Source: Eledone cirrhosa (taxonomy: Eukaryota). From it: a stretch of DNA of 64,000 nt. The position numbers and the translations under genes are program-made. Below, piece by piece: positions 8,721 through 59,488 of this stretch (position 1 is the first letter of the stretch; every line of letters starts with the position of its first letter). The notes beneath the pieces are model-generated. The model worked only from the letters and a program-made list of their open reading frames with translations, was not told where the DNA came from and ran no database searches. The stretch is taken from NCBI GenBank assembly GCA_964016885.1, contig OZ024742.1, positions 198,772,001-198,836,000 of the forward strand, in the 5' to 3' direction.

Positions 8721-9172
8721 TTTAGGAGATTAGTATCGGTGTACATATAACATAAAAAAGACAGTAAATACCGGTGTGTGTGTTATAATAATGTTTTTAC
8801 TTCATGGAAGTCAAAGGTATTAAATATTAAGGATTTGTTACCCGATGGTCATAACTCGAGGCTCAAGTTGGTAGAGAAAAGAGATCTTTTCTAGCTGGTA
8901 TTGACATCTTAGGCTCTCAGGCTGCAATTGCATTGTTCTTGGTAGCGAAGGATTATCAAGAAGGAATCATCAGAAGCTAAGGTCGCAGGTGTTACCACTT
9001 CAGAAATCAGGAAGCAAGAGCTAGATATCGTGGTAACCTGTTCCTTTTATAGGAGGTGAACGGAAGTGACCAACAGGGAGTCTGTCAATCCCAAAGGGAA
9101 GCAACTCCAGCTACTTCCTGTCTAGAGAGCGGTGATGAGATTGTCGTGACAAGGGAGGCAACTCTTGCTACA
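8721..9172 (-). repeat. 3' LTR of the Gypsy element (452 bp; TGTAG...CCTAAA)
   Basis: Direct repeat of 14130-14581. Preceded on the minus strand by the polypurine tract GGCGGGGGATAA (9173-9184). Confidence 0.96.
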
Positions 9173-9780
9173 TTATCCCCCGCCAGATTTTTAAAACATA
9201 AAAATCGAAAGAAGCATGCATGGAGTAAGATGGCGAGCATGTAAGAGGCATGAAAATTATGGTACAAAGTAATAAAAGTAAGAGAAGAGGTCAAAAGTTA
9301 AAATATCTAAAATACAGTTCACATGTGTGCAATCACATGACAGCAGTAAAGAATGTGTTCCAGAGAATGAATGCAGGTGGTTTCTGGTCTGTGGTATAAC
9401 ATGAAATTTCCAACTTCCGAAGGGAATTTCTCACAGGCAGAGTGCTGCAGAAATAAATTGTCTGGCTTGTTCTGCTGGTTTTAGTTGTTGATGAAGCTGT
9501 GTTGTTGTTGATGTTGTGAATGCGTTGACCTGGAAGGGTCAAGAGGCCAGTGACCAGAGAAATAAGCATTCTTAATAAATGCGCGGTTTTCAACGGCAAA
9601 TTTACGTGGTAAATTTATAAACCGGCAAATAGAAGAATATAGCTTAAAATGTTCGTTGTAAAGGAAACGAAAAACATATATATACATCCAGTGAAATGGT
9701 AATGAGAGGTACATTGTAATACAATAAATCAATAAATAACAAGAACAGCAAAAAAAAAATATAAGGCTCCAATGGCCAGT

Positions 9781-12700
9781 TCACATAAAAATAGTTTGGC
9801 AGAACTTTTTGGGCCAGTGGACTCTCCGACCGGAACGGGTCGTAGTCTTGTATGTAGGTGAAGGTGGGGCAGAAGGAGCAGGTGTATGCACAAGAGAGAT
9901 TGTCTCTATGAACCCCTTAACGTCTACAGTGAAATGTTTGTCAGTGCGTGCTAACATACGGTAGGGTCCAGAGTATGGTTGTGTGAGGGGTGGTCTCACA
10001 GCATCGTTCCTTACGAACACATGGGTCCACGAGGCAATGTCCCTCGGGACCGCAGGTTTTACAGTTTGCTTCCTCGTATCCATCGGCGGCAGGTCCTGAA
10101 AATAAGAACGCAGACGGGATACGTAGGAAAGCGGATCTTGGAAAGCAAGATCAACCGGGGCGAGCATTTGCCAAGGCAACGCTAGAGGAGCACTGTAAAT
10201 TAATTCGGCCGGGGAGAACCCAAGGTCCTCCTTTATTGATGACCGAATTCCTAATAACACAATAGGAAGGTACTCGCTCCAACGTTGAGAGTCTGGATAG
10301 GCGCGAAGAGCGGCCTTTAATTGGCGGTGGAATCGTTCCCCCATTCCATTTGAAGCAGGATGATAGGCTGTGGTCCGAATCCGTTGAGCTCCAATTATTT
10401 TTGTGAGCTCAGAGAATAGATGAGACTCGAATTGTCTACCACGGTCTGTGGTGAGTGTAGTTGGTACCCCAAAGCGGGTAATCCACCCTGATACCAGGGC
10501 ACGTGCTACAGTCTCAGCAGTCATGTCTTGTAAAGGGATGGCTTCAGGCCACCTTGAAAAACGATCGACACACGTCAATATGTAAGAATATCCACTGCTG
10601 AATGGCCAAGGTCCAACGATGTCAATGTGGATGTGTTGGAACCGAGCATCTGGAGTACTGAAAGTACCAAGTGGAGTCCGGATGTGTCTATGGATCTTCG
10701 ATTTCTGGCAAGTGATACAGGAACGGCACCAAGCAGCAATGTCGCGCCTCATATTTGGCCAGAAGAATCTGGCTGTTATGAGTTTAACTGTGGCAGCAGA
10801 TCCTGGATGAGAAATGTTGTGCAAAGCCAGGAACACAATTCGACGGTGAGTCTCAGGAACAAGTGGTCGCGGTGCATCAGTAGATACATCACATAGAAGC
10901 TGCCTGTCGGTGGTGGACAAGGGCAGATATTTGAAAATGCAAGTCGCAAATTCAGTAGAAAGAGTGTCCAATGATTGGAGTGCAGGTTGGTCTGCAGCTA
11001 AACGACCTAAGTCGATCTCCTGGGATGACGAGATGGAGCTAGTTGGCAAACGTGACAATGCGTCTGCAACTATGTTGTGCGAGCCGGCAATGTGCTGGAT
11101 ATCGTTTGTAAATTGTGAAACGTAGTCCAGGTGCCTTGTCTCTCTGGGCGAATATCTGTCGGCTTTGGCCCTCAAAGCGAAGGTCAACGGCTTGTGGTCG
11201 GTAAAAACCGTAAAATTTCTCCCCTCAAGAATATGAGAGAAATGTTTCACCGACAGATATATGGCTAATAATTCCCGCCCAAACGTGCTATAACGCGTTT
11301 CTGCTGGTTTCAACTTCCTCGAGAAAAATGCCAAAGGTTGTTGGTTTTCAGCGTAAGACTGCTGTAAAACTGCTCCCACAGCGGTATCAGATGCATCAAC
11401 ACAAAGCGAAAGCTTGGCCTCTGGTACCGGGTGGGCTAGCAAAGAAGAACTAGCGAGTGCTGTCTTGGCAGACTGGAAGTCCTGAAGCTGTCCTTGTGTC
11501 AAGTAAATGTCTTCATTCTTCTTACGACGATTTTTTAAAATGTCAGTAAGGGAAGATAGCCAATTAGCACAATGAGGAATGAAACGCCTATAGAAATTGA
11601 TTAGGTCTAAGAAGTGACGCAACTGGTGAAGTGTAGTAGGCGGAGGTAACTCCTGTATGGCTTGAACTCGCTGAGGGAGCGGCCTAATACCTTCGGCGTC
11701 GATGAGGTGGCCTAAAAATGTAGGGAAGTGGAACCGAAAACACACTTTGCAGGATTCACGCAAACGCGGTAATCCTGAAGTCGCCGAAGTAAGAGAAGCA
11801 TGTGGCGCATATGCTCTTCCGGAGAGGAACTAGCGACGAGAATATCGTCTATGTAAGCATAAACGAAGTCCAGACCACGCGTGACCTCGTCTATGAACCG
11901 CTGAAAAGTGCTAACGGCGTTCCTGAGTCCGAAAGGCATGGTAAAAAATTCGAATGATCCGAAAGGGGTTATAATCGCCGTTTTCGGAATATCCTCCTTC
12001 CTGACCGGAATTTGGTGGTAGGCTCGCACTAAATTTAACTTAGAAAAAGTCTTACACCCCTGCAGTGAAGATGCAAAATCGTGGAGATGGGGAATGGGAT
12101 ACCTATCCGGGACGGTCATGGCATTTAACCTCCTATAATCCCCAGTGGGTCTCCAGTCGCCGGAAGTCTTGGGCACCATGTGTAACGGTGAAGCCCAATG
12201 ACTCGTAGATGGGCGAATAATGCCCAGCTGCAGCATATGGTCGAACTCGGACCGTGCTGCCTTTAATTTTTCCGTCGGTAAGCGGCGTGGACGCGAAAAC
12301 ACTGGAGCACCGGTGGTGGAAACGAAATGTTCGGTCGAGTGTGTTGGGTCAGTGACTCGAAAATTTCCATCCGTGAGCTCCGGGAAAGAACCCAGCAACG
12401 AATGGTAGGCGTCTCCAGCGGCAGCGATGAAGAATATGGGGCTGACTATTGGAGCATTGGCTTCCTGGCCATGAATTGAAAAGCCGGTGATGTTATCCAC
12501 CAGGCGTTGGCCACGGACGTCCACAGTTAAGGAGAAGTTGTGGAGAAAATCCGCTCCTAAGATGGGGTATGGCAAATCGGCAACCGTAAAAATCCACTTA
12601 AAATCCCTTCGAAGATTTAGGAATTTAAGAGGGAGCGAGATTTGCCCGTACGTCTTTATAGACGAGTGGTTAACTGCCTGCAGCGTAACAGATGACTCTA

Positions 12701-12850
12701 TGGGGGTATCTTTCAGGCAATGGACCGGCCAAATACTACAGGAGGCTCCTGTATCCACGAGGAAACCTCTTCCGGACATTAGGTCCTTAATGAAGAAATG
12801 GCGGTTTGGTGGCTTTATGTTGAGGTCAACTGTCCCCATCAGCGGACCTC
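9781..12850 (-). pseudogene. pol: Gypsy pol (protease, RT, RNase H, integrase) split by one apparent 1-bp deletion near 11720-11735
   Basis: ORF 11712-12839 has FLVDTGA, PFGL and YIDD. ORF 9781-11763 has DAS/RELLA/TDHKPL/ADALSR, HHCC zinc finger and integrase D-D-E. The junction reads STSL/TFLGH. SKLNL replaces the usual SKLDL catalytic Asp. Confidence 0.92.
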
Positions 12851-12863
12851 TTAGGCGTTTCCC
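12822..12863 (-). promoter_or_regulatory. Putative -1 ribosomal frameshift signal between gag and pol
   Basis: In-frame heptamer G GGA AAC (12857-12863), 6-nt spacer, then hairpin GAGGUC-C-GCUG-AUGGGGA-CAGU-U-GACCUC. The -1 frame reads RLRGPL directly into pol MGTVDL. Confidence 0.8.
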
Positions 12864-13645
12864 GCCTTATGAAAGGAGCAAGGTTGCACGCAGTGATTCG
12901 CGTTCTCAGCAAATCGCTCGTGGTACCAGCATAAAGATGAAGCTGGTGACTTAGAACGCTGTCTAAAACTTTGCGATCTCCCGCGACTGCGGGGGCGCGA
13001 ACGGGCACCACACAAGGCCTTCATCTTGTGGAGCTCTATGGTGAGCTCCTGAATGGACCTTTGCATCGCTATAATGGTCGAGCTGTCTGTTGGCGCTGCC
13101 GCGTAGATCGCATGGCCGTGTGTGGCCCGAGCTGGGTGGTGAGCAGCGGCAGGGGGGTCGTTGCCTCCGGCATTCGTCACCTCGAAAACTTTGTCCGCAG
13201 AGGCGGCAAGCTGATCCACCGTGCTTGTATCCCTCATGGGGGCCAAAATTGCCTGTACGTTGGTCGGCAAACGCGAGAAGAACAACTGCTTCAGCAGGGC
13301 AGTTTCCGCTGCAGACCCCTCCGTTAGGTCCTTCATTCGCCTAAGGAGGTTCGATGGGGTGCCATCCCCTATATGCTCCAGATGGACCAGAGCCCTAAAT
13401 CTTTTTTCTGAAGACTGTTCTGTCCGGCTGAGTATTTCAGCCTTCAGAGACGTGTACGACGAGTCTGTGGTTGCCTCTAACACGAGGTCCTTAAACGCTG
13501 GGAGAATTGCCGGCGGAATTGCGCTAAAGACCACAGAATGTTGTAGTTCCTCGTCAACTCTGTTCGCCTTGAATAATGCTTCTAACTGTGAGAACCATAG
13601 CCTCACGTCGCCCGTGTCCGTTGGCAGAACAGAGTGGGAAGCCAT
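12851..13645 (-). CDS. gag: Gypsy Gag protein (264 aa)
   Basis: Open ORF: N-terminal LWF..LE..F, LF.SRLP..VQ.IL and C-terminal CWYH-x9-C-x3-C (CHCC) motif typical of CsRn1-clade Gag. Confidence 0.9.
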
Positions 13646-14110
13646 TGGTATACCGCAGGCAATCTACCGTTTGGAAAAATGTCTCTAACATAACAGAAAA
13701 GGAAAACAAAATTTTTCCGTCAAACCACTGGCCGGAAAAATAATGCATCCGGGACAATATGCAAACAAGCGATTAAGTGAATGCTGTTATACTAAGGTAA
13801 GGGCAAAGAACCTAAAAAAAAAATCCAACATGGCGGACTATTTCGCGCCAAAAACACTATTGATGGAGAAGAGAGACTCCATCTTGCCATCCTCAAAAGT
13901 TTAGCCAGAGAAGAGAAGGGCAGAAAAGGAGAGAAAAAAAAAAAAAAGGCAAAAACATTTATACAATTGCTGTTTGTCTGTGTGTCAATGATTGTAGGTG
14001 TTCGTTTTGTATTAAATTGTTATATTTTTCTCTTTTTCTTGTCTTTCTTTTTTTTAAATATTATATACACCGTATACCATTTCCCATTCTTTTTTTTTTT
14101 TTTTTTTAAA

Positions 14111-14128
14111 TCACGTCGGGGGTCACCA
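14111..14128 (-). promoter_or_regulatory. Primer-binding site complementary to the tRNA-Trp 3' end
   Basis: TGGTGACCCCCGACGTGA lies 1 nt after the 5' LTR. The tRNA-Trp 3' end ...TCACGTCGGGGTCACCA (from recall) matches except for one extra C here. Confidence 0.85.
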
Positions 14129-14129
14129 G

Positions 14130-14581
14130 TTTAGGAGATTAGTATCGGTGTACATATAACATAAAAAAGACAGTAAATACCGGTGTGTGTGTTATAATAA
14201 TGTTTTTACTTCATGGAAGTCAAAGGTATTAAATATTAAGGATTTGTTACCCGATGGTCATAACTCGAGGCTCAAGTTGGTAGAGAAAAGAGATCTTTTC
14301 TAGCTGGTATTGACATCTTAGGCTCTCAGGCTGCAATTGCATTGTTCTTGGTAGCGAAGGATTATCAAGAAGGAATCATCAGAAGCTAAGGTCGCAGGTG
14401 TTACCACTTCAGAAATCAGGAAGCAAGAGCTAGATATCGTGGTAACCTGTTCCTTTTATAGGAGGTGAACGGAAGTGACCAACAGGGAGTCTGTCAATCC
14501 CAAAGGGAAGCAACTCCAGCTACTTCCTGTCTAGAGAGCGGTGATGAGATTGTCATGACAAGGGAGGCAACTCTTGCTACA
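14130..14581 (-). repeat. 5' LTR of the Gypsy element (452 bp)
   Basis: Direct repeat of 8721-9172, followed by the PBS on the minus strand. Confidence 0.96.
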
Positions 14582-19771: not shown

Positions 19772-19880
19772 ATTATTTCTACTTTTGGCACAAAGCCAAC
19801 AATTATCCCAGTGTGTTACTGATACTTTATTTTATTGACCCCGTAAGGATGAAAGGCAAAGTTAACCTCGATGGGATTTT
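19772..19880 (-). mobile_element. SINE fragment, family 2
   Basis: Same motif as 5982-6135; interrupted by the LINE 3' end. Confidence 0.7.
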
Positions 19881-19884
19881 TACA

Positions 19885-30035: not shown

Positions 30036-30105
30036 TTCTCTTTTACTCTTTTACCTGTTTCAGCCATCCGGCTGAGGCCATGCTGGGGCACCGCCCTTGG
30101 TTCCC
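30036..30105. mobile_element. Short SINE family-1 fragment inserted in the satellite
   Basis: TTTTACTCTTTTACCTGTTTCAGCCATCCGGCTGAGGCCATGCTGGGGCACCGCC, homologous to 3337-3385. Confidence 0.7.
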
Positions 30106-38400: not shown

Positions 38401-38472
38401 AATGTCAACATAATGACATTTTTGATAGAAATGCCCTCAAAATGTCAACATAATGACATATTTGATAGAAAT

Positions 38473-40881: not shown

Positions 40882-43800
40882 ACATTTTTGATAGAAATGC
40901 CCTCAAAATGTCAACATAATGACATATTTGATAGAAATGCCGTCAAAGTTGCAACATAATAAGATTTTCGATAGATATGCCGTCAAAATGTCAACATAAT
41001 GATCTTTTTGATAGAAATGCCATCAAAGTGTTAACATAATGACATTTTTTATAGAAATGCGGTAAAAATGTCAACATAATGAGATTTTCGAGAGAAATGC
41101 CGTCAAAATGTCAACATAATGGCCCTTTTCATAGAAATGCCGTCAAAATGTCAACATAATGGCCCTTTTCATAGAAATGCCGTGCAAATAAATAGATAAT
41201 GAGATTTTTGATAGATATGCCGTCAAAATGACACCATAATGAGATTTTTGATAAGAAATGCTCCCAAAATGTTAACATAATGACATTTTTTATAGAAATG
41301 CCGTTAAAATGTCAACATAATGACATTTTTTAGAGAAATGCCGTCAAACTCTCAACATAATGACATGTTTTAGAGAAATGCCCTCAAACTCTCAACATAA
41401 TTAGATTTTTTATACATATGTCGTCAAAATGTCAACCTAATAAGATTTTTGATAGATATGCAGTCAAAATGTCAACAAATGAGATTTTCGATAGAAATGC
41501 CGTTAAAATGTCAACATAATGACATTTATAATAGAAATGAAGTCAAAATGTCAACATAATGAGATTTTCGATAGAAATAGCGTCAAAATGACAAATTAAG
41601 ATTTTCGATAGAAATGCCGTTAAAATGTCAACATAATGATATTTCTGATAGAAATGCCGTCAAAATATCAGCATATTAAGATTTTGATAGATATGCCGAC
41701 AAAATGTCAACATAATGACTATTTTGATAGAAATGCCGTCAAAATGTCACCATAATGAGATTTTTGATAGAAATGCTCCCAAAATGTTAACATAATGATA
41801 TTTTTGAGAGAAATGCCGTCAAAATGTCAACATAATGACATTTTTTAGAGAAATGCCGTCAAACTCTCAACATAATTAGATTTTTTATACATATGTCGTC
41901 AAAATGTCAACATAATAAGATTTTTGATAGATATACAGTCAAAATGTCAACATAATGAGATTTTCGATAGAAATGCCGTTAAAATGTCAACATAATGACA
42001 TTTATAATAGAAATGAAGTCAAAATGTCAACATAATGAGATTTTCGATAGAAAAAGCGTCAAAATGTCAAATTAAGATTTTCGATAGAAATGCCGTTAAA
42101 ATGTCAACATAATGATATTTCTGATAGAAATGCCGTCAAAATATCAGCATATTAAGATTTTGATAGATATGCCGACAAAATGTCAACATAATGACATTTT
42201 TGATAGAAATGCCGTCAAAATGTTAAAATAATGAGATCTACGATAGAAATGTTTTCAAAACGTTGACATGATGAAATTTTTTTATAGAAATGCCCTCAAA
42301 ATATCAACATAATGACATGTTTTAGAGAAATGCCCTCAAACTCTCAACATAATTAGATTTTTTATACATATGTCGTCAAAATGTCAACATAATAAGATTT
42401 TTGATAGATATGCAGTCAAAATGTCAACATAATGAGATTTTCGATAGAAATGCCGTTAAAATGTCAACATAATGATATTTCTGATAGAAATGCCGTCAAA
42501 ATATCAGCATATTAAGATTTTGATAGATATGCCGACAAAATGTCAACATAATGACTATTTTGATAGAAATGCCGTCAAAATGTCACCATAATGAGATTGT
42601 TGATAGAAATGCTCCCAAAATGTTAACATAATGATATTTTTGAGAGAAATGCCGTCAAAATGTCAACATAATGACATTTTTTAGAGAAATGCCGTCAAAC
42701 TCTCAACATAATTAGATTTTTTATACATATGTCGTCAAAATGTCAACATAATAAGATTTTTGATAGATATACAGTCAAAATGTCAACATAATGAGATTTT
42801 CGATAGAAATGCCGTTAAAATGTCAACATAATGACATTTATAATAGAAATGAAGTCAAAATGTCAACATAATGAGATTTTCGATAGAAAAAGCGTCAAAA
42901 TGTCAAATTAAGATTTTCGATAGAAATGCCGTTAAAATGTCAACATAATGATATTTCTGATAGAAATGCCGTCAAAATATCAGCATATTAAGATTTTGAT
43001 AGATATGCCGACAAAATGTCAACATAATGACATTTTTGATAGAAATGCCGTCAAAATGTTAAAATAATGAGATCTACGATAGAAATGTTTTCAAAACGTT
43101 AACATGATGAAATTTTTTTATAGAAATGCCCTCAAAATATCAACATAATGACATGTTTTAGAGAAATGCCCTCAAACTCTCAACATAATTAGATTTTTTA
43201 TACATATGTCGTCAAAATGTCAACATAATAAGATTTTTGATAGATATGCAGTCAAAATGTCAACATAATGAGATTTTCGATAGAAATGCCGTTAAAATGT
43301 CAACATAATGATATTTATAATAGAAATGAAGTCAAAATGTCAACATAATGAGATTTTTGATAGAAATAGCGTCAAAATATCAAATTAAGATTTTCGATAG
43401 AAATGCCGTTAAAATGTCAACATAATGATATTTCTGATAGAAATGCCGTCAAAATATCAGCATATTAAGATTTTGATAGATATGCCGACAAAATGTCAAC
43501 ATAATGACATTTTTGATAGAAATGCCGTCAAAATGTCAAAATAGTGAGATCTACGATAGAAATGCCTTCAAAGCGTCAACATGAAATTTTTTATAGAAAT
43601 GCCCTCAAAATGTCAACATAATGATATTTTTTATAGAAATGCCGCCAAAAAGTCAACATAATGACATTTATGATATAAATGCAGTCAAAATGCCAACATA
43701 ATGAGATTTTCGAAAGAAATACCGTCAAAATGTTAACATAAGATTTTCGATTGAAATGCCGTCAAAATGTCAACATACTGAGATTTATAATAGAAATGAA

Positions 43801-44296
43801 GTCAAAATGTCAACATAATGAGATTTTCGACAAAAATGCCGTCGCAATGTCAACATAATGACATTTTTGATAGAAATGCCCTCAAAATGTCAACATAATG
43901 ACATATTTGATAGAAATGCCGTCAAAGTCCCAACATAATAAGATTTTCGATAGGTATGCCGTCAAAATGTCAACATAATGATCTTTTTGATAGAAATGCC
44001 ATCAAAGTGTGAACATAATGACATTTTTTATAGAAATGCGGTAAAAATGTCAACATAATGACATTTTTGAGATAAATGCCGTCAAAATGTCAACATAATG
44101 ATATTTTTTATAGAAATGCCGTAAAAATGTCAACATAATGAGATTTTCGATAGAAATGCCGTCAAAATGTCAATATAATGAGATTATCGATAAAAATTAC
44201 ATCAAAATGTTAACATAAAGAGATTTTCGATAGAAATGCCGACAAAATGTCAACATACTGAGATTTTTTATAGAAATGCTGCCAAAATGTTAACAT

Positions 44297-47093
44297 TGTA
44301 GTAACTATGGCGACAGTGTGTTGACTATAGCAACACAGTGTCGCCACCTGTGGGTAACACAAAAAAATAGCGAATTACTTCCCTTATCTCGGCGTTCTCT
44401 AAAAGAAGAGACGACAATGTAAAACTCAAGAGATTTGGGTTTCAATTCCAGTCGCCTTTGTCCTGCCACGTGGACGTACTTTGTAACAACGCCTGTTTTT
44501 GACCAAGAGATTTTGATATCTCTTCTTGAATGTAAGAATTAAGCCATTGCCGTTTAGCTTGCAGGGTATGTCCTATGAATGTAATTATTATGTTGTGTTT
44601 TATTAAATGAATCATTTAATAAAAGATTAGCCTTGTTATCGTTAAAGCCCTTCTGTTTTAATTAATAATCTTAGAGAGATGAGATGTCGTTCACACACCT
44701 GGACGATATATCATTTTTGTAAACTGGTGACCGACGTAAGAATTTTACGCAGCCTTTTTATTCAGTTGAACTTCACTATTATTACCACGTTGCCAACCTT
44801 TTCGCAACTTACGAAAATACAAAATATTCCTTTTAAAATTTAAAAAAAAATTAGCAGTATTTCAAAAACTTTTCGCCACGAGGAAATTTCAAAATGGCTA
44901 CCGACAAGTCCTGTCTACAATCAACAACAGCAGCGACAACACATGGCTAACTATTAACCAACACCAGGGAATGGCTTATAACTTTACCGACGCAACCACC
45001 ATACCTTCTGTCTCGTTACCACAAGGACTCGAGAAATTAAGACATTAGTCTTCTCACCATTATGGCGTCAGACGTGGCTGCCATATTGGTGACTCTAGGT
45101 TCTTCAACGCTAGACTTCGACTCTACAGAAGATTCATTGTGACTTTGTCTTAACAGCAACAACAACTCTACTAGCTCCCTAGTAAGGGCGATCCCAAAGA
45201 AAAGAAAAGCGAACTTTTTGTTAAAAGAAAAGAAACAATTCTTTCTTTCTTCCTTTTTTTTCAGGCATTTATTTTAGACATTTTTTTTTCTTCCGATACG
45301 GCTTCCTGCAATACAAACAAGCAACACAACCTTATGTCACACAAGGTGGCAGGACGGTAAAATGGCCACGAAAACTCTCAAAAACAATATACATCTAATC
45401 CCTAGTGGCATTAACAAACTTCTTTTTCAGTTTTCAGATAGAACTAGTGTCAGAAAGTCTGTACACTGGTGATGTGTGAACTATTTGACTTTGAAAAACT
45501 TTGAACTTATCATTTAGCATTAATTTCTCTGCTCCCTTATATTGACTTTGAATTATCAGTTTGTTACATTCACATATTTCTTTGTAAAATGCATTTACTT
45601 GTTTTGTGCTCTTTTGCTATTTGCTTGCTCATGGTTTTTGTTCATTCACATTCTTTGCTGTTTTACATGCCTGCATAAGCACACATTTCTTTATCACACA
45701 CCAACATGTTGTTCTTGGTATATATTCTTCAAACGCAATATTCTGCGAGATCCCTTTTCACCTGGTTGAGGTGCCGTCACATGCTAGCGACTCATAGAGC
45801 TTAATTCACCTGGATTCAAACAGGCACCGCAACACGAGAATGCTAATTGCAGCTGAACTCAAACAGTTTCGCATCTCGTTGCACACCCATCGTCCATAAC
45901 AACCTCTATGTTGTTACCTTACCCAACTCACTGGGAAAACAACAAATAGAACTGAACTTGTCAGCATTTCCACCACTTCTGTGGATTCGCCTGAATTATG
46001 GAACTGCAACCCACCTACAGATTCAACTTGCTTTTTTTTCTTTTCAAAGCAACCATCCATTTTTTCCTGGCTCCCTAGCACATTCGGCAATACATCTGGG
46101 AGGCCAACATTTTCTCGCCTACCTATCATCTTCTTGCCAGCACTAGTAAACTACCATAATAGGTTCATCCACAGCTACTGGTACAGCACTTACCATTAAC
46201 ATTTAATGCAAGAACAGCAACTTCGCCCATGTCAGACTTTATCCGTTTTCTGTTAGACCTTTGGTGGTCACGTATAAACTACAAAACAGCTAGTCATTTG
46301 ACACAGCGGCTCAACGCGGCCCTTAGCGCCTCATTTTTTTTCTTGCATGCATCCTTCTGCTCAATTATTTTTTCACTGATGTGCTCTTTCAGCATTGTTC
46401 TTGCTGATTCAATAATCTGTATCGACTTCCGCAGGCGACATCAAGTTATGGTTTTTGCAGCTTGAATGCTATTTTGATTTAACATATTTCACCTCTATAT
46501 TGTTCGTTTTGAAACCGGTTTCAACAACTTGTAAAGAGTACCTTGTAAGGCTTTGGCTTCATTGTTATATACTACAGGAATTTTTCTTGCACCAATTTAC
46601 AACTTCTAGTTCCTCCATGCTATCGTTTGTTTTACGATTTTTATTAAAAATCTGATCGGAGGTGATTGTAGTAACTATGGCGACAGTGTGTTGACTATAG
46701 CAACGCAGTGTCGCCACCTGTGGGTAACACAAAAAAATAGCGAATTACTTCCCTTATCTCGGCGTTCTCTAAAAGAAGAGACGACAATGTAAAACTCAAG
46801 AGATTTGGTTTTCAATTCCACTCGCCTTTGTCCTGCCACGTGGACGTACTTTGTAACAACGTCTGTTTTTGACCAAGAGATTTTCATATCTCTTCTTGAA
46901 AGTAAGAATTAAGCCATTGCCGTTTAGCTTGCAGGGTATGTCCTATGAATGTAATTATTATGTTGTGTTTTATTAAATGAATCATTTAATAAAAGATTAG
47001 CCTTGTTATCGTTAAAGCCCTTCTGTTTTAATTAATAATCTTAGAGAGATGAGATGTCGTTCACACACATGGACGATATATCATTTTTGTAAA
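44297..47093 (+). mobile_element. Non-autonomous LTR retroelement B (copy 1)
   Basis: 427-bp LTRs at 44297-44723 and 46667-47093 (TGTAG...TGTAAA, about 7 substitutions). PBS TGGTGACCGACGT at 44725-44737, PPT GATCGGAGGTGAT, 4-bp TSD ACAT. Confidence 0.95.
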
Positions 47094-50000
47094 ACATAAT
47101 GACATTTTTGAGAGAAATGCCGTCAAAATGTCATCATAATGACATTTTTTAGAGAAATGCCGTCAAAATCTCAACATAATCAGATTTTTTATACATATGT
47201 CGTCAAAATGTCAACATAATGACATTTTTTTATATAAGTGCCGTCAAAATGTCAACATAATAACATTTTTGATAGAAATGCAGTCAAAATGTCAACATAA
47301 TGAGATTTTCGATAGAAATACCGTCAAAATGTCAACATAAGATTTTCGATAGAAATGCCGTCAAAATGTCAACATACTGAGATTTTGGATGGATAGAAAT
47401 GCCGTTTAAATGTCAACATAATGTAATTTTCGATCGAAATGCCGTCACAATGTCAATATAATGATATTTTTTATAGAAATTCCGTCTAAATGTCAACATA
47501 ATGATAATTTCGATAGAAATGCAATCGAAATGTCAACATAATGAGTTTCTTTTATAGAAATCCGCTCAAAATATCACCATAATAAGAGTTTTGATAAAAA
47601 TGCTGATAAAACGAAAACAAAATGAAATTTTCGAGAGAAATGTCGTGAAAATGTCAATATAATATGATATTCGATAGAAATGGAGTCAAAATATCAACAT
47701 AATAACATTTATTATAGAAATGCCGTCAAAATCTGAACATAATCAAATTTTTTATAGATATGCCGTCAAAATGTCAACATAAGGAGATTTTCGATATAAA
47801 TGCCGTCAAATAGTCAACATAATGAGATTTTCGATAGAAATGCCGTTAAAATGTCCACATAATGATATTTCTGATAGAAATGCCGTCAAAACATCAGCAT
47901 ATTAAGATTTTGATAGATATGCCAACAAAATGTCAACATAATGACATTTTTTATAGAAATGCCGTCAAAATGTCAAAATAATGAGATCTATGATAGAAAT
48001 GCCTTCAAAACGTCAACATGTTGAACTTTTTTTTATAGAATTGCCCTCAAAATGTCAACATAATGACATTTTTTATAGAAACGCCGTCAAAATGTCAACA
48101 TCATGAGATTTTCGACAGATATTCCGTCAAAATGTCAACATAATGACATTTCTGATAAAAATAACGTGTAAATATCAGCATATGAAGATTTTTGATAGAT
48201 ATGACGACAAAATGTCAACATAATGACATTTTTGATAGAAATGCCGTCAAAATGTCAAAATAATCAGATTTATGATAGAAATGCCTTCAAAACGTCAACA
48301 TAATGAAATGTTTTATAGAAATGCCCTAAAAATGTCAATATAATGATAATTTTCATAGAAATGCCGTAAAAATGTCAACATAATGAGATATTCGATAGAA
48401 ATGCCGTCAAAATGTCAATATAATGAGATTATCGATAAAAATTACATCAAAATGTTAACATAAAGAGATTTTCGATAAAAAAAGCCGTCAAAATGTTAAC
48501 ATACTGAGATTTTGGATAGAAACGCCGTCAAAATGTCAACATAATGAGATTTTTGATAGAAATGCGGTCACAATGTCAACATAATGAGATTTTGGATAGA
48601 AATGCCGTCAAAATGTCAACATAATGAGATTTTCGATAGAAGTGTAGGCAAAATATCAACATAATGAGATTATCGATAGAAATGCCGTCAAAATGTCAAC
48701 ATAATGGCACTTTTCCTAGAAATGCTGTCAAAATATCAACATAATGAGATTTATGATAGAAATGCCGTAAAAATGTCAACATAATGAAATTTTCGACAAA
48801 AATGCCGTCACTATGTTAACATAATGACATTTTTTATAGAAATGCCTTCAAAATGTCAACATAATGAGATTTTCGATAGAAATGCCGTCAAAAAGTCAAC
48901 ATAATGAGATTTATGATAGAAATGCAGTCAAAATGTCCACATAATGTGATTTTCGAAAGAAATACCGTCAAAATGTCAACATAAGATTGTCGATAGAAAT
49001 ACCGTCAAAATGTCAACATATTGAGATATTCGACAAAAATGCCGTCACATTGTCAACATAATGATTTTTTTAATAGAAATGCCCTGAAAATGTGAACATA
49101 ATGACATATTTTATAGAAATTCGCTAAAAATGTCAACATAATGAGATTTTCGATAGAAATGCTGTTAAAATGTCAACATAATAACATTTTTGATAGATAT
49201 GCAGTCAAAATGTCAACATAATGAGATTTTCGATAGAAATGCCGTTAAAATGTCAACATAATGACATTTATGATAGAAATGCAGTAAAATTGTCAACATA
49301 ATGAGAATTTCGATGGAAATACCGTCAAAATGTCAACGTAAGTTTTTCGATAGAAATGCCGTTAAAATGTCAACATACTGAGATTTTGGATGGATAGAAA
49401 TGCCGTTGAAATATCAACATAATGTAATTTTCGATAGAAATGCCGTCAAAATGTCAACATAATGATAATTTCGATAGAAATGGAATCAAAATGTCAACAT
49501 AATGAGTTTTTCTTTATAGAAATGCGCTCAAAATATCACCATAATGAGAGTTTTGATAAAAATGCCGAAAAAACGGAAACAAAATGAAATTTTCGAGAGA
49601 AATGCCATCAAAATGTCAACATAATGACATATTTGATAGAAATGCCGTCAAAGTTGCAACATAATAAGATTTTTGATAGATATGCCGTCAAAATGTCAAC
49701 ATAATGATCTTTTTGATAGAAATGCCATCAAAGTGTTAACATAATGACATTTTTATAGAAATGCGGTAAAAATGTCAACATAATGAGATTTTCGAGAGAA
49801 ATGCCGCCAAAATGTCAACATAATGAGGTTTTCGACAAAAATGCCGACACTATGTTAACATAATGACATTTTTTATAGAAATGCCTTCAAAATGTCAACA
49901 TAATGAGATTTTCGATAGAAATGCCGTCAAAAAGTCAACATAATGAGATTTATGATAGAAATGCAGTCAAAATGTCCACATAATGAGATTTTCGAAAGAA

Positions 50001-51744
50001 ATATCGTCAAAATGTCAACATAGGATTGTCGATAGAAATACCGTCAAAATGTCAACATATGGAGATATTCGACAAAAATGCCGTCACATTGTCAACATAA
50101 TGACATTTTTGGTAGAAATGCCCTCAAAATGTCAAAATAATGACATATTTCATAGAAATTCGCTAAAAATGTCAACATAATGAGATTTTCGATAGAAATG
50201 CTGTTAAAATGTCAACATAATGACATTTATGATAGAAATTCAGTAAAAATGTCAACATAATGAGAATTTCGATGGAAATACCGTCAAAATGTCAACATAA
50301 GTTTTTCGATAGAAATGCCGTCAAAATGTCAACATACTGAGATTTTGGATGGATAGAAATGCCGTTGAAATGTCAACATAATGTAATTTTCGATAGAAAT
50401 GCCCTCAAAATGTCAATATAATGATATTTTTTATAGAAATTCCGTCAAAATGTCAACATAATGATAATTTCGATAGAAATGGAATCGAAATGTCAACATA
50501 ATGAGTTTTTTATTTATAGAAATGGGCTCAAAATATCACCATAATGAGAGTTTTGATAAAAATGCCGAAAAAACGGAAACAAAATGAAATTTTCGGGAGA
50601 AATGCCGTGAAAATGTCAATATAATATGATATTCGATAGAAATGGAGTCAAAATATCAACATAATGACATTTTTTATAGAAATGCCGTCAAAATGTCAAA
50701 ATAATGAGATCTATGATCGAACTGGCTTCAAAACGTCAACATAATGATATTTTTCTTAGAAATGCCGTAAAAATGTCAACATAATGAGATTTTCGATAGA
50801 AATGCCGTCAAAATGTCAATATAATGAGATTATCGATAATAATTACATCAAAATGTTAACATAAAGAGATTTTCGATAGAAACGCCGTCAAAATGTCAAC
50901 ATAATGAGATTTTCGATCGAAATGCAGTCACAATGTCAACATGAGATTTTCGATAGAAATGACGTCAAAATGTCAACATAATGACTTTTTTTCATAGAAA
51001 TGCCGTCAAAATCTCATCATAATGAGATTTTTGATAGAAATGCCGTCAAAATGTCAACATAATGACATTTGTTATAAAAATGCTCTCAAAATGTCAACAT
51101 ACTGACATTTTTGAAAGAAATGCCGTCAAAATGTCAACATAGTGAGAGTTATAATAGAAATGCCGACAAAACGTCAACATAATGAGATTTTCGATAGAAA
51201 TGCCGTCAAAATGTCAACATAATGACATTTCGATTTCGATAGAAATGCCGTCGAAATGTCAACATAATGAGTTTATTATAGAAATGCCATCGAAATGTTA
51301 ACCTAATGAGTTTTTCTATAGAAATGCAGGCAAAATCTCAACAATGATAATTCTGATAGAAATGCCGTCAAAATGTCAAAATATTGAGATCTATGATAGA
51401 AATGCCTTCAAAATTTTTTATAGAAATGCCCTCAAAATATCAACATAATGATATTTTTTATAGAAATACCGTCAAAAAGTCAACATAATGACATTTATGA
51501 TAGAAATGCAGTCAAAATGTCAACATAATGAGATTTTAGAAAGAAATACCGTCAAAATGTTAACATAAGATTTTCGATAGAAATGCCGTCAAAATGTCAA
51601 CATACTGAGATTTTGGATAGAAATGCCGTCAAAATGTCAACATAATGAGATTTTCGAAAAAAATGCCGTCGTAATGTCAACATAATGACATTTTTGATAG
51701 AAATGCCCTCAAAATGTCAACATAATGACATATTTGATAGAAAT

Positions 51745-54153
51745 GTGACCTACATTCCGCGGGCTCACATACATTCTCTGTGCGTGATTTGGTTCAGTTC
51801 AGCCAATCAGCGCCAGTAGAAGAGGATGTATCCCTACGCGCCCTGAGGAAGAAATTCACCGCGAAGATTTGAAGAATCTCGCTCTTGTACCGAAACTTCA
51901 AGCCAGCAACACGCATAATGTAATAGTGAGATATTGTACCACTAGCCTCGCCGGCTTAACGGCGCAATGGCACATTCCATTTTGTAACCTCTTTTTATCT
52001 GTAACTTCAACCATATAAATAAACAAACATTGCATCTCTAATTACTGCGGTTGAAGTCGTTATTATGTTTACTCGTGTCTCAATGACATCTTTAATCCAT
52101 GCTGCTGGAATTGGCGACCTGACGAAAGGAATATTGTAAATAGATGGTAAATAGATCGAGGGACCTTCCCTCACGTCTATGTCAACAAGATAATCCAACG
52201 AGGATACTATCACTTACCACACTGGCAACTAACGACCACTGATTCTACCACCCCGCTAAAGTGGCGATAACATCTATAACCAATACTGCTAAAGTGGTGA
52301 CCGACGTAAGAATATCACGCAGCCCTTCTTATTCATTCAGTTTAACTTTTATTGCCACGTCGCAACTTGCGAAAATCCAGAATATTCCTTTTAAGATTTT
52401 TGAAAAATTGGCAGTATTTCAAAAACTTTTTCGCTACGAAAAAATTTCAAGATGGCTACCGACATGTCATGGCTACGCTTGACAACAACAATGACAGCAG
52501 TAGCGACAGCGTTGTTTAACCACTGACCAATACAGGGAACAGTGAGTGGCAGCTTCATAACCTTACCAACGCCAACCACCACACATCGGAAATTTCAAAA
52601 CGGCTTGTAACTTTACCGACGCAACCACCATACCTTCTGTCTCGTTACCACAGGGACGCGAGAAATTGAGACAGTAGTTTTCTCACTATTATGCCGTCAG
52701 ACGTGACTGCCATATTTGGTGACTCCTAATCTACAGAAGATTCTTTGACTTTGCTTTAACAATAAGAAACACAACCGTGTGGCGGGACGGGAAAATGGCC
52801 ACGAAATCTCACAAAAACACCATACATCTAACCCCTAACGGCATTAACAAACTTCTTTTTCAGTTTTCAGATCGAACTAGTGTCTGTACACTGGTGATGT
52901 GTGAACTATTTGACTTTGAAAAACTTTGAACTTATTGAGCAATTTCTCTGCTCCCCTAGATTGACTTTGAATTATCAGTTTGTTACATTCACATATTTCT
53001 TTGTAGAATGCATTTACTTGTTTTGTGCTCTTTTGCTATTTGCTTGCTCATGGTTTTTGTTCATTCACATTCTTTGCTGTTTTACATGCCTGCATATGCA
53101 CACATTTTTTTTTATCACACACCAACATGTTGTTCTTGGTATATGTTCTTCAAACGTAATATTCTGCGAGTCCCTTTTCACCTGGTTGAGATGCTGGCAG
53201 CTCACAGAGCTTAATCCACTGGATTCAAACGGTCACCGCAACACGAGAATACTAATTGCCGCTGAACTCAAACAGCTTCGCATCTCGTTGCACACTGATC
53301 GTCCATAACGGCCATCCGTATTGTTGTTTTTGCCCGACTCGCTGGGAAAGCAACAAGTTGAACTGGACTTGTCAACATTTCGGCCACTTCTGTGGATTCG
53401 CCCAAATTATGGAATTTACACTGCAACCCACCTACAAATTAAACTTGCCTTTTGTTCTTTACAAAGCAACCAGCCATTTTTTCCTGGCTCCACAGCACAT
53501 TCGACAATACATCTGGGGGCCATCATTTTCTCGCCAGCACTGGTAAACTACCATAATAGCTTCGTTCACAGCTACTGGTACAACGCTTACCATTAACATT
53601 TAATGCAAGAACAGCAACTTCGCCCATGTCAGACTTTATCCGTTTTTTGTTAGACCTTTGGCGGTCACGTATAAACAACAAAACAACTGGTCATTTGACA
53701 CAGCGGCTCAACACGGCCCGTAGCGCCTCATTTTTGTTCTTGCATGCGACCTTCTGCTCAATTATTTTTTTCACTGATGTGCTCTTTCAGCATTTGTTCT
53801 TGTTGATTTAATATGTGAGTCCTTGGTTTCTTCGTTATCGATTTTCGGCTGAAAATCTGGTTGGAGGTGATGTAGTGACCTACATTCCGCGGGCTCACAT
53901 ACATTCTCTGTGCGTGATTTGGCTCAGTTCAGCCAATCAGCGCCAGTAGAAGAGGATGTATCCCTACGCGCCCTGAGGAAGAAATTCACCGCGAAGATTT
54001 GAAGAATCTCGCTCTTGTACCGGAAACTTCAAGCCAGCAACACGCATAATGTAATAGTGAGATATTGCCACACTTACCACACTGGCAACTAACGACCACT
54101 GATTCTACCACCCCGCTAAAGTGGCGATAACATCTATAACTAATACTGCTAAA
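51745..54153 (+). mobile_element. Non-autonomous LTR retroelement A (copy 2, part of the segmental duplication)
   Basis: Near-identical to 38473-40881, including flanks and the 3' LTR deletion. Confidence 0.9.
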
Positions 54154-56692
54154 ACATTTTTGATAGAAATGCCCTCAAAATGTCAACATAATGACATATT
54201 TGATAGAAATGCCGTCAAAGTTGCAACATAATAAGATTTTCGATAGATATGCCGTCAAAATGTCAACATAATGATCTTTTTGATAGAAATGCCATCAAAG
54301 TGTTAACATAATGACATTTTTTATAGAAATGCGGTAAAAATGTCAACATAATGAGATTTTCGAGAGAAATGCCGTCAAAATGTCAACATAATGGCCCTTT
54401 TCATAGAAATGCCGTCAAAATGTCAACATAATGGCCCTTTTCATAGAAATGCCGTGCAAATGAATAGATAATGAGATTTTTGATAGATATGCCGTCAAAA
54501 TGACACCATAATGAGATTTTTGATAAGAAATGCTCCCAAAATGTTAACATAATGACATTTTTTATAGAAATGCCGTTAAAATGTCAACATAATGACATTT
54601 TTTAGAGAAATGCCGTCAAACTCTCAACATAATTAGATTTTTTATACATATGTCGTCAAAATGTCAACCTAATAAGATTTTTGATAGATATGCAGTCAAA
54701 ATGTCAACAAATGAGATTTTCGATAGAAATGCCGTTAAAATGTCAACATAATGACATTTATAATAGAAATGAAGTCAAAATGTCAACATAATGAGATTTT
54801 CGATAGAAATAGCGTCAAAATGACAAATTAAGATTTTCGATAGAAATGCCGTTAAAATGTCAACATAATGATATTTCTGATAGAAATGCCGTCAAAATAT
54901 CAGCATATTAAGATTTTGATAGATATGCCGACAAAATGTCAACATAATGACTATTTTGATAGAAATGCCGTCAAAATGTCACCATAATGAGATTTTTGAT
55001 AGAAATGCTCCCAAAATGTTAACATAATGATATTTTTGAGAGAAATGCCGTCAAAATGTCAACATAATGACATTTTTTAGAGAAATGCCGTCAAACTCTC
55101 AACATAATTAGATTTTTTATACATATGTCGTCAAAATGTCAACATAATAAGATTTTTGATAGATATACAGTCAAAATGTCAACATAATGAGATTTTCGAT
55201 AGAAATGCCGTTAAAATGTCAACATAATGACATTTATAATAGAAATGAAGTCAAAATGTCAACATAATGAGATTTTCGATAGAAAAAGCGTCAAAATGTC
55301 AAATTAAGATTTTCGATAGAAATGCCGTTAAAATGTCAACATAATGATATTTCTGATAGAAATGCCGTCAAAATATCAGCATATTAAGATTTTGATAGAT
55401 ATGCCGACAAAATGTCAACATAATGACATTTTTGATAGAAATGCCGTCAAAATGTTAAAATAATGAGATCTACGATAGAAATGTTTTCAAAACGTTAACA
55501 TGATGAAATTTTTTTATAGAAATGCCCTCAAAATATCAACATAATGACATGTTTTAGAGAAATGCCCTCAAACTCTCAACATAATTAGATTTTTTATACA
55601 TATGTCGTCAAAATGTCAACATAATAAGATTTTTGATAGATATGCAGTCAAAATGTCAACATAATGAGATTTTCGATAGAAATGCCGTTAAAATGTCAAC
55701 ATAATGACATTTATAATAGAAATGAAGTCAAAATGTCAACATAATGAGATTTTTGATAGAAATAGCGTCAAAATATCAAATTAAGATTTTCGATAGAAAT
55801 GCCGTTAAAATGTCAACATAATGATATTTCTGATAGAAATGCCGTCAAAATATCAGCATATTAAGATTTTGATAGATATGCCGACAAAATGTCAACATAA
55901 TGACATTTTTGATAGAAATGCCGTCAAAATGTCAAAATAGTGAGATCTACGATAGAAATGCCTTCAAAACGTCAACATGAAATTTTTTATAGAAATGCCC
56001 TCAAAATGTCAACATAATGATATTTTTTATAGAAATGCCGCCAAAAAGTCAACATAATGACATTTATGATATAAATGCAGTCAAAATGCCAACATAATGA
56101 GATTTTCGAAAGAAATACCGTCAAAATGTTAACATAAGATTTTCGATTGAAATGCCGTCAAAATGTCAACATACTGAGATTTATAATAGAAATGAAGTCA
56201 AAATGTCAACATAATGAGATTTTCGACAAAAATGCCGTCGCAATGTCAACATAATGACATTTTTGATAGAAATGCCCTCAAAATGTCAACATAATGACAT
56301 ATTTGATAGAAATGCCGTCAAAGTCCCAACATAATAAGATTTTCGATAGGTATGCCGTCAAAATGTCAACATAATGATCTTTTTGATAGAAATGCCATCA
56401 AAGTGTGAACATAATGACATTTTTTATAGAAATGCGGTAAAAATGTCAACATAATGACATTTTTGAGATAAATGCCGTCAAAATGTCAACATAATGATAT
56501 TTTTTATAGAAATGCCGTAAAAATGTCAACATAATGAGATTTTCGATAGAAATGCCGTCAAAATGTCAATATAATGAGATTATCGATAAAAATTACATCA
56601 AAATGTTAACATAAAGAGATTTTCGATAGAAATGCCGACAAAATGTCAACATACTGAGATTTTTTATAGAAATGCTGCCAAAATGTTAACAT

Positions 56693-59488
56693 TGTAGTAA
56701 CTATGGCGACAGTGTGTTGACTATAGCAACACAGTGTCGCCACCTGTGGGTAACACAAAAAAATAGCGAATTACTTCCCTTATCTCGGCGTTCTCTAAAA
56801 GAAGAGACGCCAATGTAAAACTCAAGAGATTTGGGTTTCAATTCCAGTCGCCTTTGTCCTGCCACGTGGACGTACTTTGTAACAACGCCTGTTTTTGACC
56901 AAGAGATTTTGATATCTCTTCTTGAATGTAAGAATTAAGCCATTGCCGTTTAGCTTGCAGGGTATGTCCTATGAATGTAATTATTATGTTGTGTTTTATT
57001 AAATGAATCATTTAATAAAAGATTAGCCTTGTTATCGTTAAAGCCCTTCTGTTTTAATTAATAATCTTAGAGAGATGAGATGTCGTTCACACACCTGGAC
57101 GATATATCATTTTTGTAAACTGGTGACCGACGTAAGAATTTTACGCAGCCTTTTTATTCAGTTGAACTTCACTATTATTACCACGTTGCCAACCTTTTCG
57201 CAACTTACGAAAATACAAAATATTCCTTTTAAAATTTAAAAAAAAATTAGCAGTATTTCAAAAACTTTTCGCCACGAGGAAATTTCAAAATGGCTACCGA
57301 CAAGTCCTGTCTACAATCAACAACAGCAGCGACAACACATGGCTAACTATTAACCAACACCAGGGAATGGCTTATAACTTTACCGACGCAACCACCATAC
57401 CTTCTGTCTCGTTACCACAAGGACTCGAGAAATTAAGACATTAGTCTTCTCACCATTATGGCGTCAGACGTGGCTGCCATATTGGTGACTCTAGGTTCTT
57501 CAACGCTAGACTTCGACTCTACAGAAGATTCATTGTGACTTTGTCTTAACAGCAACAACAACTCTACTAGCTCCCTAGTAAGGGCGATCCCAAAGAAAAG
57601 AAAAGCGAACTTTTTGTTAAAAGAAAAGAAACAATTCTTTCTTTCTTCCTTTTTTTTCAGGCATTTATTTTAGACATTTTTTTTCTTCCGATACGGCTTC
57701 CTGCAATACAAACAAGCAACACAACCTTATGTCACACAAGGTGGCAGGACGGTAAAATGGCCACGAAAACTCTCAAAAACAATATACATCTAATCCCTAG
57801 TGGCATTAACAAACTTCTTTTTCAGTTTTCAGATAGAACTAGTGTCAGAAAGTCTGTACACTGGTGATGTGTGAACTATTTGACTTTGAAAAACTTTGAA
57901 CTTATCATTTAGCATTAATTTCTCTGCTCCCTTATATTGACTTTGAATTATCAGTTTGTTACATTCACATATTTCTTTGTAAAATGCATTTACTTGTTTT
58001 GTGCTTTTTTGCTATTTGCTTGCTCATGGTTTTTGTTCATTCACATTCTTTGCTGTTTTACATGCCTGCATAAGCACACATTTCTTTATCACACACCAAC
58101 ATGTTGTTCTTGGTATATATTCTTCAAACGCAATATTCTGCGAGATCCCTTTTCACCTGGTTGAGGTGCCGTCACATGCTAGCGACTCATAGAGCTTAAT
58201 TCACCTGGATTCAAACAGGCACCGCAACACGAGAATGCTAATTGCAGCTGAACTCAAACAGTTTCGCATCTCGTTGCACACCCATCGTCCATAACAACCT
58301 CTATGTTGTTACCTTACCCAACTCACTGGGAAAACAACAAATAGAACTGAACTTGTCAGCATTTCCACCACTTCTGTGGATTCGCCTGAATTATGGAACT
58401 GCAACCCACCTACAGATTCAACTTGCTTTTTTTTCTTTTCAAAGCAACCATCCATTTTTTCCTGGCTCCCTAGCACATTCGGCAATACATCTGGGAGGCC
58501 AACATTTTCTCGCCTACCTATCATCTTCTTGCCAGCACTAGTAAACTACCATAATAGGTTCATCCACAGCTACTGGTACAGCACTTACCATTAACATTTA
58601 ATGCAAGAACAGCAACTTCGCCCATGTCAGACTTTATCCGTTTTCTGTTAGACCTTTGGTGGTCACGTATAAACTACAAAACAGCTAGTCATTTGACACA
58701 GCGGCTCAACGCGGCCCTTAGCGCCTCATTTTTTTTCTTGCATGCATCCTTCTGCTCAATTATTTTTTCACTGATGTGCTCTTTCAGCATTGTTCTTGCT
58801 GATTCAATAATCTGTATCGACTTCCGCAGGCGACATCAAGTTATGGTTTTTGCAGCTTGAATGCTATTTTGATTTAACATATTTCACCTCTATATTGTTC
58901 GTTTTGAAACCGGTTTCAACAACTTGTAAAGAGTACCTTGTAAGGCTTTGGCTTCATTGTTATATACTACAGGAATTTTTCTTGCACCAATTTACAACTT
59001 CTAGTTCCTCCATGCTATCGTTTGTTTTACGATTTTTATTAAAAATCTGATCGGAGGTGATTGTAGTAACTATGGCGACAGTGTGTTGACTATAGCAACG
59101 CAGTGTCGCCACCTGTGGGTAACACAAAAAAATAGCGAATTACTTCCCTTATCTCGGCGTTCTCTAAAAGAAGAGACGACAATGTAAAACTCAAGAGATT
59201 TGGTTTTCAATTCCACTCGCCTTTGTCCTGCCACGTGGACGTACTTTGTAACAACGTCTGTTTTTGACCAAGAGATTTTCATATCTCTTCTTGAAAGTAA
59301 GAATTAAGCCATTGCCGTTTAGCTTGCAGGGTATGTCCTATGAATGTAATTATTATGTTGTGTTTTATTAAATGAATCATTTAATAAAAGATTAGCCTTG
59401 TTATCGTTAAAGCCCTTCTGTTTTAATTAATAATCTTAGAGAGATGAGATGTCGTTCACACACATGGACGATATATCATTTTTGTAAA
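56693..59488 (+). mobile_element. Non-autonomous LTR retroelement B (copy 2, part of the segmental duplication)
   Basis: Near-identical to 44297-47093, with the same ACAT TSD and flanks. Confidence 0.95.

What the first reader, a model, noticed from the sequence alone, without database searches (positions are those of the whole stretch)
8721..59488. Three LTR families with non-canonical TGTAG...TAAA ends and tRNA-Trp primer sites: candidate helper/parasite retroelement system
Seen: the Gypsy element (TGTAGC...CCTAAA-c-TGG), element A (TGTAGT...GCTAAA-g-TGG) and element B (TGTAGT...TGTAAA-c-TGG) have unrelated LTR bodies. Yet every LTR ends in AA rather than CA and is followed after 1 nt by TGGTGACC(n)GACGT. 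Where junctions are intact the TSD is 4 bp, which fixes the boundary (TGTT; ACAT). Established: integrases normally join CA-3' ends, and CsRn1-clade elements use tRNA-Trp and a CHCC Gag. Inference: a lineage whose integrase accepts an asymmetric CA/AA pair of ends and mobilises pol-less A and B in trans. LTR finders that require TG..CA would miss it. Whether this has been described cannot be checked here.
Basis: partly seen in the sequence, partly recalled or inferred. Interest (0 to 1): 0.72.

Follow-up and report, generated by a model that had tools for sequence, protein, structure and literature searches.

The report
Known retrotransposon clade with end-swapping parasites
The odd ends are real but already described for this group of jumping genes; what is left of interest is that its gene-less hitch-hiker copies carry end pieces of several full-length relatives, likely picked up while being copied with those relatives' enzymes.

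Summary
The sequence features are confirmed: TGTAG...TAAA LTRs, tRNA-Trp primer sites and 4-bp target duplications. They are not new. The genome also contradicts a dedicated CA/AA integrase: related families end in AAA, TTA, ATA or canonical ACA, and two families with 91-94% identical integrases differ in CA versus AA. Only the last A is fixed. The 'three families' shrink too. A1/B1 and A2/B2 are one local duplication, and B is a single chimera: LTRs of an autonomous family (H) around an A-type inside. Element A is a real pol-less family (at least about 200 copies), but it shares DNA with two other autonomous families (K, J), not with the Gypsy copy in the window. Its LTR stacks several old ends, each followed by a dead primer site, which suggests repeated end capture from helpers. 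Verdict: new members of a known clade, with one modest extra observation.

The parts
8721..14581 (-). Element G: full-length CsRn1-type Ty3/Gypsy copy, TSD TGTT at 8717-8720 and 14582-14585
14130..14581 (-). G 5' LTR, TGTAGC...CCTAAA, 452 bp
14111..14128 (-). G primer-binding site, complementary to tRNA-Trp (one extra C in this copy)
12851..13663 (-). G gag frame: DUF7041 domain, CHCC motif CX2HX9CX3C, GGGAAAC at the overlap with pol
9781..12866 (-). G pol (protease, RT, RNase H, integrase with GPY motif), read in two frames in this copy (11712-12866 and 9781-11829), so broken within RT/RNase H
8721..9172 (-). G 3' LTR, preceded by a polypurine tract
38474..40881 (+). Element A1: pol-less element of the N lineage; first bases and left TSD lost; ACAT follows the right end
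38474..38860 (+). Basal N-type LTR body ending in a decayed end plus dead primer site (about 38826-38860), inside the A LTR
   Evidence: 80-84% to short-LTR N copies L184/L185/L187/L188/L189 including their PBS
38872..38962 (+). U5 end of autonomous family K (CA end) plus second dead primer site, inside the A LTR
   Evidence: 88% over 83 nt to K copies L171/L176
38976..39021 (+). Third end-like module and the final J-type end (...ATACTGCTAAA)
   Evidence: 29/29 nt identity of the A 3' LTR end to J copy L257
39023..39330 (+). A primer site (8 nt perfect, then 2 nt missing) and leader, 75-78% like family J
40599..40881 (+). A1 3' LTR with an internal deletion of about 270 bp
44297..47093 (+). 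Element B1: chimera, TSD ACAT at 44293-44296 and 47094-47097
44297..44723 (+). B 5' LTR = LTR of autonomous family H (97-98%)
44725..46431 (+). N-lineage inside of B: PBS, K-like leader (first 100 nt), remnant of an integrase C-terminal tail (45339-45422), non-coding body 96.6% to L184 over 1160 bp
46430..46666 (+). 54 nt of H gag joined to the H 3' UTR and polypurine tract
46667..47093 (+). B1 3' LTR (H type), 420 of 427 identical to the 5' LTR
51746..54153 (+). A2: duplicate of A1 (2 substitutions, same junctions)
56693..59488 (+). B2: duplicate of B1 (2 substitutions, 1 gap, same junctions)
28907..62301 (.). 40-bp satellite array (about 23 kb in five blocks) that hosts A and B

Best explanation
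The window holds one full-length CsRn1-type Ty3/Gypsy copy and two pol-less elements, and across this genome the clade's LTRs end in AAA, TTA, ATA or ACA with a 4-bp target duplication, so its integrases likely require only TG at one end and a final A at the other. A is a multi-copy pol-less family of an older non-coding lineage (N) that likely arose by internal deletion and is likely copied by the K/J families, whose ends, primer site and leader it shares. Template switching between co-packaged RNAs would explain both the stack of old ends in the A LTR and element B (H LTRs around an N inside). Shown: anatomy, ends, TSDs, shared DNA, integrase similarity. Inferred: integrase tolerance, helper identity, co-packaging.
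For: Ends: G AAA in 29 of 30 LTR loci, A AAA in 30 of 30; H TTA 19, AAA 6, unclear 1 of 26 outside the window; K ACA with a 4-bp TSD in 8 of 11 elements; 8 of 20 further tRNA-Trp elements had TSD-fixed ends: ATA 5, AAA 1, TTA 1, ACA 1. 4-bp TSD in 23 of 32 G/H/A elements read, 7 rows unread; a 5-bp TSD at the same boundary in 0 of 32. The 23 sites have a symmetric R-NNNN-Y context (21 of 23 and 19 of 23), which centres the cut on the 4-mer. K (ACA) and J (AAA) are 91-93% identical in DNA over 4.8 kb and 91-94% in integrase, with 6 conservative fixed differences. Published clade features: PMC2582038, PMC3630058. A end+PBS pattern: 212 exact hits, 0 in the control; of 12 read, 9 are pol-less A type and 3 are gag-bearing J. 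Other N copies carry the K U5 piece with different final ends (L190, L227, L239). Recombination during reverse transcription between families is reviewed in PMC6894440.
Against: 15 of the 32 elements also fit a 5-bp TSD with the end one base shorter; that reading still gives no CA. 9 of 32 had no matching TSD. Each DNA search scored only the 40 best candidates and pattern loci were the first in contig order, so the samples are small and biased. The A polypurine tract looks more like H than K/J, so more than one helper is possible. The B chimera was found only in this window, so DNA-level nesting and deletion explain it as well. J-A leader identity is only 75-78%. No tree with named CsRn1 references was built, and no activity or co-packaging data exist here.
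Confidence: 0.75

Rival explanations
1. One reading: one lineage has an integrase specialised for an asymmetric CA/AA pair, and the Gypsy family in the window mobilises A and B.
For: G and A end in AAA almost without exception; all three use tRNA-Trp and 4-bp TSDs.
Against: G shares no DNA with A or B and has other pol-less partners (L224, L228, L232, L237). Sister families end in ACA, TTA, ATA. No integrase column tracks end type. The segment around the third catalytic residue reads the same in most G, H, K and J copies.
Confidence: 0.08
2. The mosaics (stacked ends in A, chimera B) arose at DNA level: elements inserted into or beside each other, then deletions and ectopic recombination at the shared PBS trimmed them. 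No co-packaging is needed.
For: B exists at one site only; its junctions lie at short shared sequence (PBS homology, 2-5 nt overlaps); nesting occurs (an A LTR inside an H-like pol, L255).
Against: The stacked ends sit in both LTRs of L190 and L239 and are fixed in the multi-copy A family, so they passed through reverse transcription at least afterwards; several different stacks share the same K piece.
Confidence: 0.3
3. The true boundary is one base further in, with a 5-bp TSD (ends TG...AA or TG...TT, 2-nt spacer).
For: 15 of 32 elements fit it, including B in the window.
Against: The last A is kept whatever the target; 8 of the 23 4-bp sites, including G in the window, do not fit 5 bp; the R-NNNN-Y symmetry explains the excess; published TSD for the clade is 4 bp.
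Confidence: 0.05

Closest known systems
CsRn1 clade of Ty3/Gypsy (CsRn1, PwRn1, AgCR-1 to -14; PMC2582038, passages and section 6 read)
   Same: TGT...AAA or ATA ends, 4-bp TSD, tRNA-Trp PBS, CHCC Gag, GPY motif, overlapping gag/pol frames, no env.
   Different: That section reports no TTA ends, no target preference and no pol-less partners; here TTA and ACA ends occur, with an R-NNNN-Y target context and several pol-less lineages.
Soybean SNRE/SARE autonomous-nonautonomous partnership with LTR swapping (PMC2828711; not held, only the title and mentions seen; details recalled)
   Same: A pol-less family exchanges LTR parts with autonomous partners.
   Different: Plant system; here the exchange is with at least three families (K, J, H), and old ends are stacked in U5, not simply replaced.
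LARD/TRIM-type non-autonomous LTR elements in animals (PMC3286476, PMC10886601; passages read)
   Same: LTRs, PBS and PPT kept, no coding capacity, helper inferred from shared PBS or internal DNA.
   Different: A is about 2.7 kb, has no small-RNA promoter recognised here, and keeps a remnant of an integrase tail.
Non-TGCA LTR elements of plants (Tos17 TG..GA, TARE1 TA..CA; bioRxiv 10.1101/137141, passages read)
   Same: Non-palindromic ends are an established class, and tools exist to look for them.
   Different: Mostly Copia with 5-bp TSD; 'TGAA' does not occur in the main text, and the supplement listing the seven motifs was not seen.

Membership tests
CsRn1 clade (Ty3/Gypsy) | PBS complementary to tRNA-Trp | tested here: met
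   Matches the genome's own tRNA-Trp(CCA) genes; A, B, K and J carry a variant lacking 2 nt after the first 8
CsRn1 clade (Ty3/Gypsy) | Gag CHCC motif CX2HX9CX3C | tested here: met
   G 7 of 7 copies, H 5 of 8, K 9 of 11, J 3 of 3
CsRn1 clade (Ty3/Gypsy) | 4-bp target-site duplication | tested here: met
   23 of 32 G/H/A elements read; 9 of 11 K elements
CsRn1 clade (Ty3/Gypsy) | LTR ends TGT...AAA or TGT...ATA | tested here: met
   G, A, J AAA; other families ATA; also TTA and ACA against PMC2582038
CsRn1 clade (Ty3/Gypsy) | PR-RT-RH-IN order with GPY/F motif, no env | tested here: met
   Pfam RVT_1, RT_RNaseH, Integrase_H2C2, rve in that order and nothing after; GPY read in the 682-aa frame; no further long ORF before the 3' LTR
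CsRn1 clade (Ty3/Gypsy) | RT/IN phylogeny groups with CsRn1, Kabuki, Boudicca | not tested
   No named reference sequences were fetched; trees hold only this genome's families
Non-autonomous LTR retrotransposon (LARD-like), element A | LTRs, PBS, PPT, no gag or pol, dispersed copies with different TSDs | tested here: met
   pol hits beside 2 of 44 A/N loci belong to neighbouring elements
Non-autonomous LTR family, element B | Dispersed copies of the same structure | tested here: not met
   3' junction spanned by 2 of 40 hits and 5' junction by 2 exact hits genome-wide, all in this window
Helper/parasite pair | Mobilisation in trans shown by co-packaging or induced transposition | not testable with these tools
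   Inferred from shared ends, PBS and leader only

The most novel reading that the evidence does not exclude
A pol-less CsRn1 parasite lengthens its LTR by serially capturing the integrase-attachment ends of different helper families, leaving a readable stack of dead end-plus-primer modules (AA, then CA, then AA again), while helpers K and J trade the same ends back. This would be a natural record of helper switching made possible by an integrase that ignores the second-last base.
Probability: 0.35. Interest if true: 0.5.

Novelty: new member of a known kind. Interest (0 to 1): 0.25.

Why it matters
The headline (TG...AA ends in a tRNA-Trp, CHCC-Gag clade) is published, so it changes little. 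Two smaller points are of use. First, annotation: G, H, J and A/N copies do not end in CA, so a strict TG..CA filter would drop them (inference; no LTR finder was run). Second, K and J are near-identical integrases paired with CA and AA ends, and the A LTR stores a series of captured ends; this is a convenient natural set for asking how strictly LTR integrases read their ends and how pol-less elements change helpers.

Tried and rejected
Satellite targeting: rejected; 10 of 267 stored loci match the 40-bp satellite and all 10 are this window. G as helper of A/B: no shared DNA. B as a family: not found elsewhere. Autonomous element with the A/N LTR start: none among 44 A/N loci or 12 pattern loci, not exhaustive. 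End-specific integrase residues: none in 345 columns, 14 rows; 4 further copies had been left out or were too short in the earlier core tree. First PBS survey assuming a 1-nt spacer gave AA 21, TA 6, CA 2, AT 1 of 30; this overcounts AA, since TSD-fixed boundaries showed 2-nt spacers. Solved structures: nearest are PFV and Ty3 integrases; the Ty3 preprint passage gave no detail on end contacts, so the role of the compared segment is recalled, not sourced. Literature for stacked ends or pol-less CsRn1 partners: 'duplicated primer binding' + 'long terminal repeat' + 'non-autonomous' gave 0 papers; 'non-autonomous' + 'LTR retrotransposon' + 'CsRn1' gave 8, of which 2 were read in passages and did not describe it. 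Repbase, Dfam and subscription papers could not be searched. No earlier scan notes were found.
Full report
OBSERVATION. The window holds a Ty3/Gypsy copy (G) at 8721-14581 on the minus strand, with 452-bp LTRs TGTAGC...CCTAAA that differ at one base, and a TGTT duplication on both sides. Gag carries DUF7041 and a CHCC motif; pol carries RT, RNase H and integrase and is read in two frames in this copy. Elements A and B lie in a 40-bp satellite. The PBS pattern occurs 5 times, against 0 in 100 shuffles, and matches this genome's tRNA-Trp(CCA) genes. The three LTRs are unrelated to each other. But A1/A2 and B1/B2 have the same junctions, are over 99.8% identical, and the satellite between them is duplicated too, so the window has one A and one B insertion.

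BOUNDARY. In the own genome (3.0 Gb) I read 30 LTR loci per family, from the 40 best-scored candidates of each search. G ends in AAA in 29 of 30 and A in 30 of 30. Of 32 G/H/A elements whose two flanks could be read (7 rows could not), 23 have a 4-bp TSD, 0 have a 5-bp TSD at that boundary, and 9 have none. Fifteen also fit a 5-bp TSD with the end one base shorter. That excess follows from a symmetric target context: a purine before the TSD in 21 of 23 and a pyrimidine after it in 19 of 23.

ALREADY PUBLISHED. PMC2582038 (passages and section 6 read; its image supplement not seen) states that in CsRn1-like elements TGT...ACA is modified to TGT...AAA or TGT...ATA, with a 4-bp TSD, a tRNA-Trp PBS and a CHCC Gag. 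PMC3601003 (passages) lists the CsRN1 3' motif as MSYYAMA, although its text counts the clade among the TG...CA models. PMC3630058 (passages) names the same clade features. Non-TGCA ends are also a known class in plants (bioRxiv 10.1101/137141, passages).

NOT AN AA-SPECIFIC LINEAGE. The B LTR belongs to a gag-pol family, H (7 of 9 paired loci fetched have gag and most of pol, the other two have parts). Outside the window 19 of 26 H LTRs end in TTA, 6 in AAA. The B-type PBS-plus-leader has 71 exact hits; 21 of the 30 read belong to another gag-pol family, K, whose LTR ends in canonical ACA, with a 4-bp TSD at that end in 8 of 11 elements. The A end-plus-PBS has 212 exact hits; 3 of 12 read belong to family J, which is K's gag-pol body (91-93% DNA identity over 4.8 kb) with an AAA end (TSD readable in 1 of 3). 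K and J integrases are 91-94% identical with 6 conservative fixed differences, and none of 345 columns separates 4 CA-ended from 10 other copies. Among 20 further elements with a perfect tRNA-Trp PBS (410 hits genome-wide), 8 had TSD-fixed ends: ATA 5, AAA 1, TTA 1, ACA 1. Only TG at the left and the final A at the right are constant. That the integrase ignores the second-last base is an inference from these counts.

THE POL-LESS ELEMENTS. A is a dispersed family of about 2.7 kb without gag or pol, with LTR pairs 98.6-100% identical in four copies. It belongs to a wider non-coding lineage (N) whose LTRs start TGTAGTGACC and which keeps a remnant of an integrase tail, so it likely began as an internal deletion of a CsRn1 element. 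A and B share no DNA with G; G has other pol-less partners that share its 3' UTR at 76-94% in pieces. A shares its final end, PBS variant and leader with J and an 83-nt U5 piece with K. B is H LTR, K/N-type PBS and N inside (96.6% to L184 over 1160 bp), 54 nt of H gag, H 3' UTR and H LTR. Both B junctions were found only in this window.

STACKED ENDS. The A LTR is a short N LTR with its own decayed end and PBS, then the K U5 end (CA) with a second dead PBS, then a third end-like module, then the J-type AAA end and the live PBS. Other N copies carry the same K piece with different last modules, ending in CA (L190, L239) or AAA (L227); in L229 the K piece lies in the leader. The simplest mechanism is template switching between co-packaged helper and parasite RNA during first-strand synthesis, which also yields B in one round; such recombination between families is reviewed in PMC6894440 (passages and section 9), and LTR swapping is reported for soybean (title only seen). 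DNA-level nesting and deletion cannot be excluded, above all for B. Two literature searches did not find stacked ends or pol-less CsRn1 partners described, but Repbase, Dfam and most subscription papers were out of reach.

VERDICT. Real features, known clade, known ends. The helper/parasite idea is right in kind but names the wrong helper and counts a chimera as a family. Interest 0.25; the stacked-end reading would deserve about 0.5 if confirmed. The family letters G, H, J, K and N are my working labels.

Noticed in passing
window 39023-39035, 44725-44737; L243-L254: The PBS variant lacking 2 nt is kept in 12 of 12 loci picked without regard to it, although copying of the tRNA primer would be expected to restore a full match in part of the progeny; only 8 nt of pairing may be used.
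   Followed up: partly
L224, L228, L232, L237: A second pol-less lineage shares G's 3' UTR and polypurine tract but has its own LTRs ending in ATA: likely G's real parasite.
   Followed up: partly
L179: A K element whose 3' LTR stops 5 nt short, at TTTTA, yet has a perfect AAGT duplication: a shortened end ending in A may have been integrated.
   Followed up: no
L255 (G000:C3:220719500-220729400): An A LTR stretch sits inside the pol of an H-like element: nesting of parasite in helper.
   Followed up: partly
L236: A pol-less K-related element with two further PBS-like copies inside its LTR and an ATA end: end stacking may not be limited to the N lineage.
   Followed up: no
window 28907-62301: 40-bp satellite with a local duplication of about 12-13 kb that includes A and B; could be array expansion or an assembly duplicate.
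   Followed up: partly
window 15632-17550 and 62646-63212 (-): hAT-type transposase fragments (DUF4371, Dimer_Tnp_hAT).
   Followed up: no
window 22071-22625 (+): 184-aa frame without a Pfam hit that resembles, from recall, the endonuclease end of a non-LTR retrotransposon.
   Followed up: no
window 1-1184: 73-bp tandem repeat, about 15 copies at 94%.
   Followed up: no
G000:C4:353394904-353486315: 39 of the 51 hits to a tRNA-Trp 3' end pattern lie in one tandem cluster; the six loci checked with ARAGORN were from another cluster on C4.
   Followed up: no
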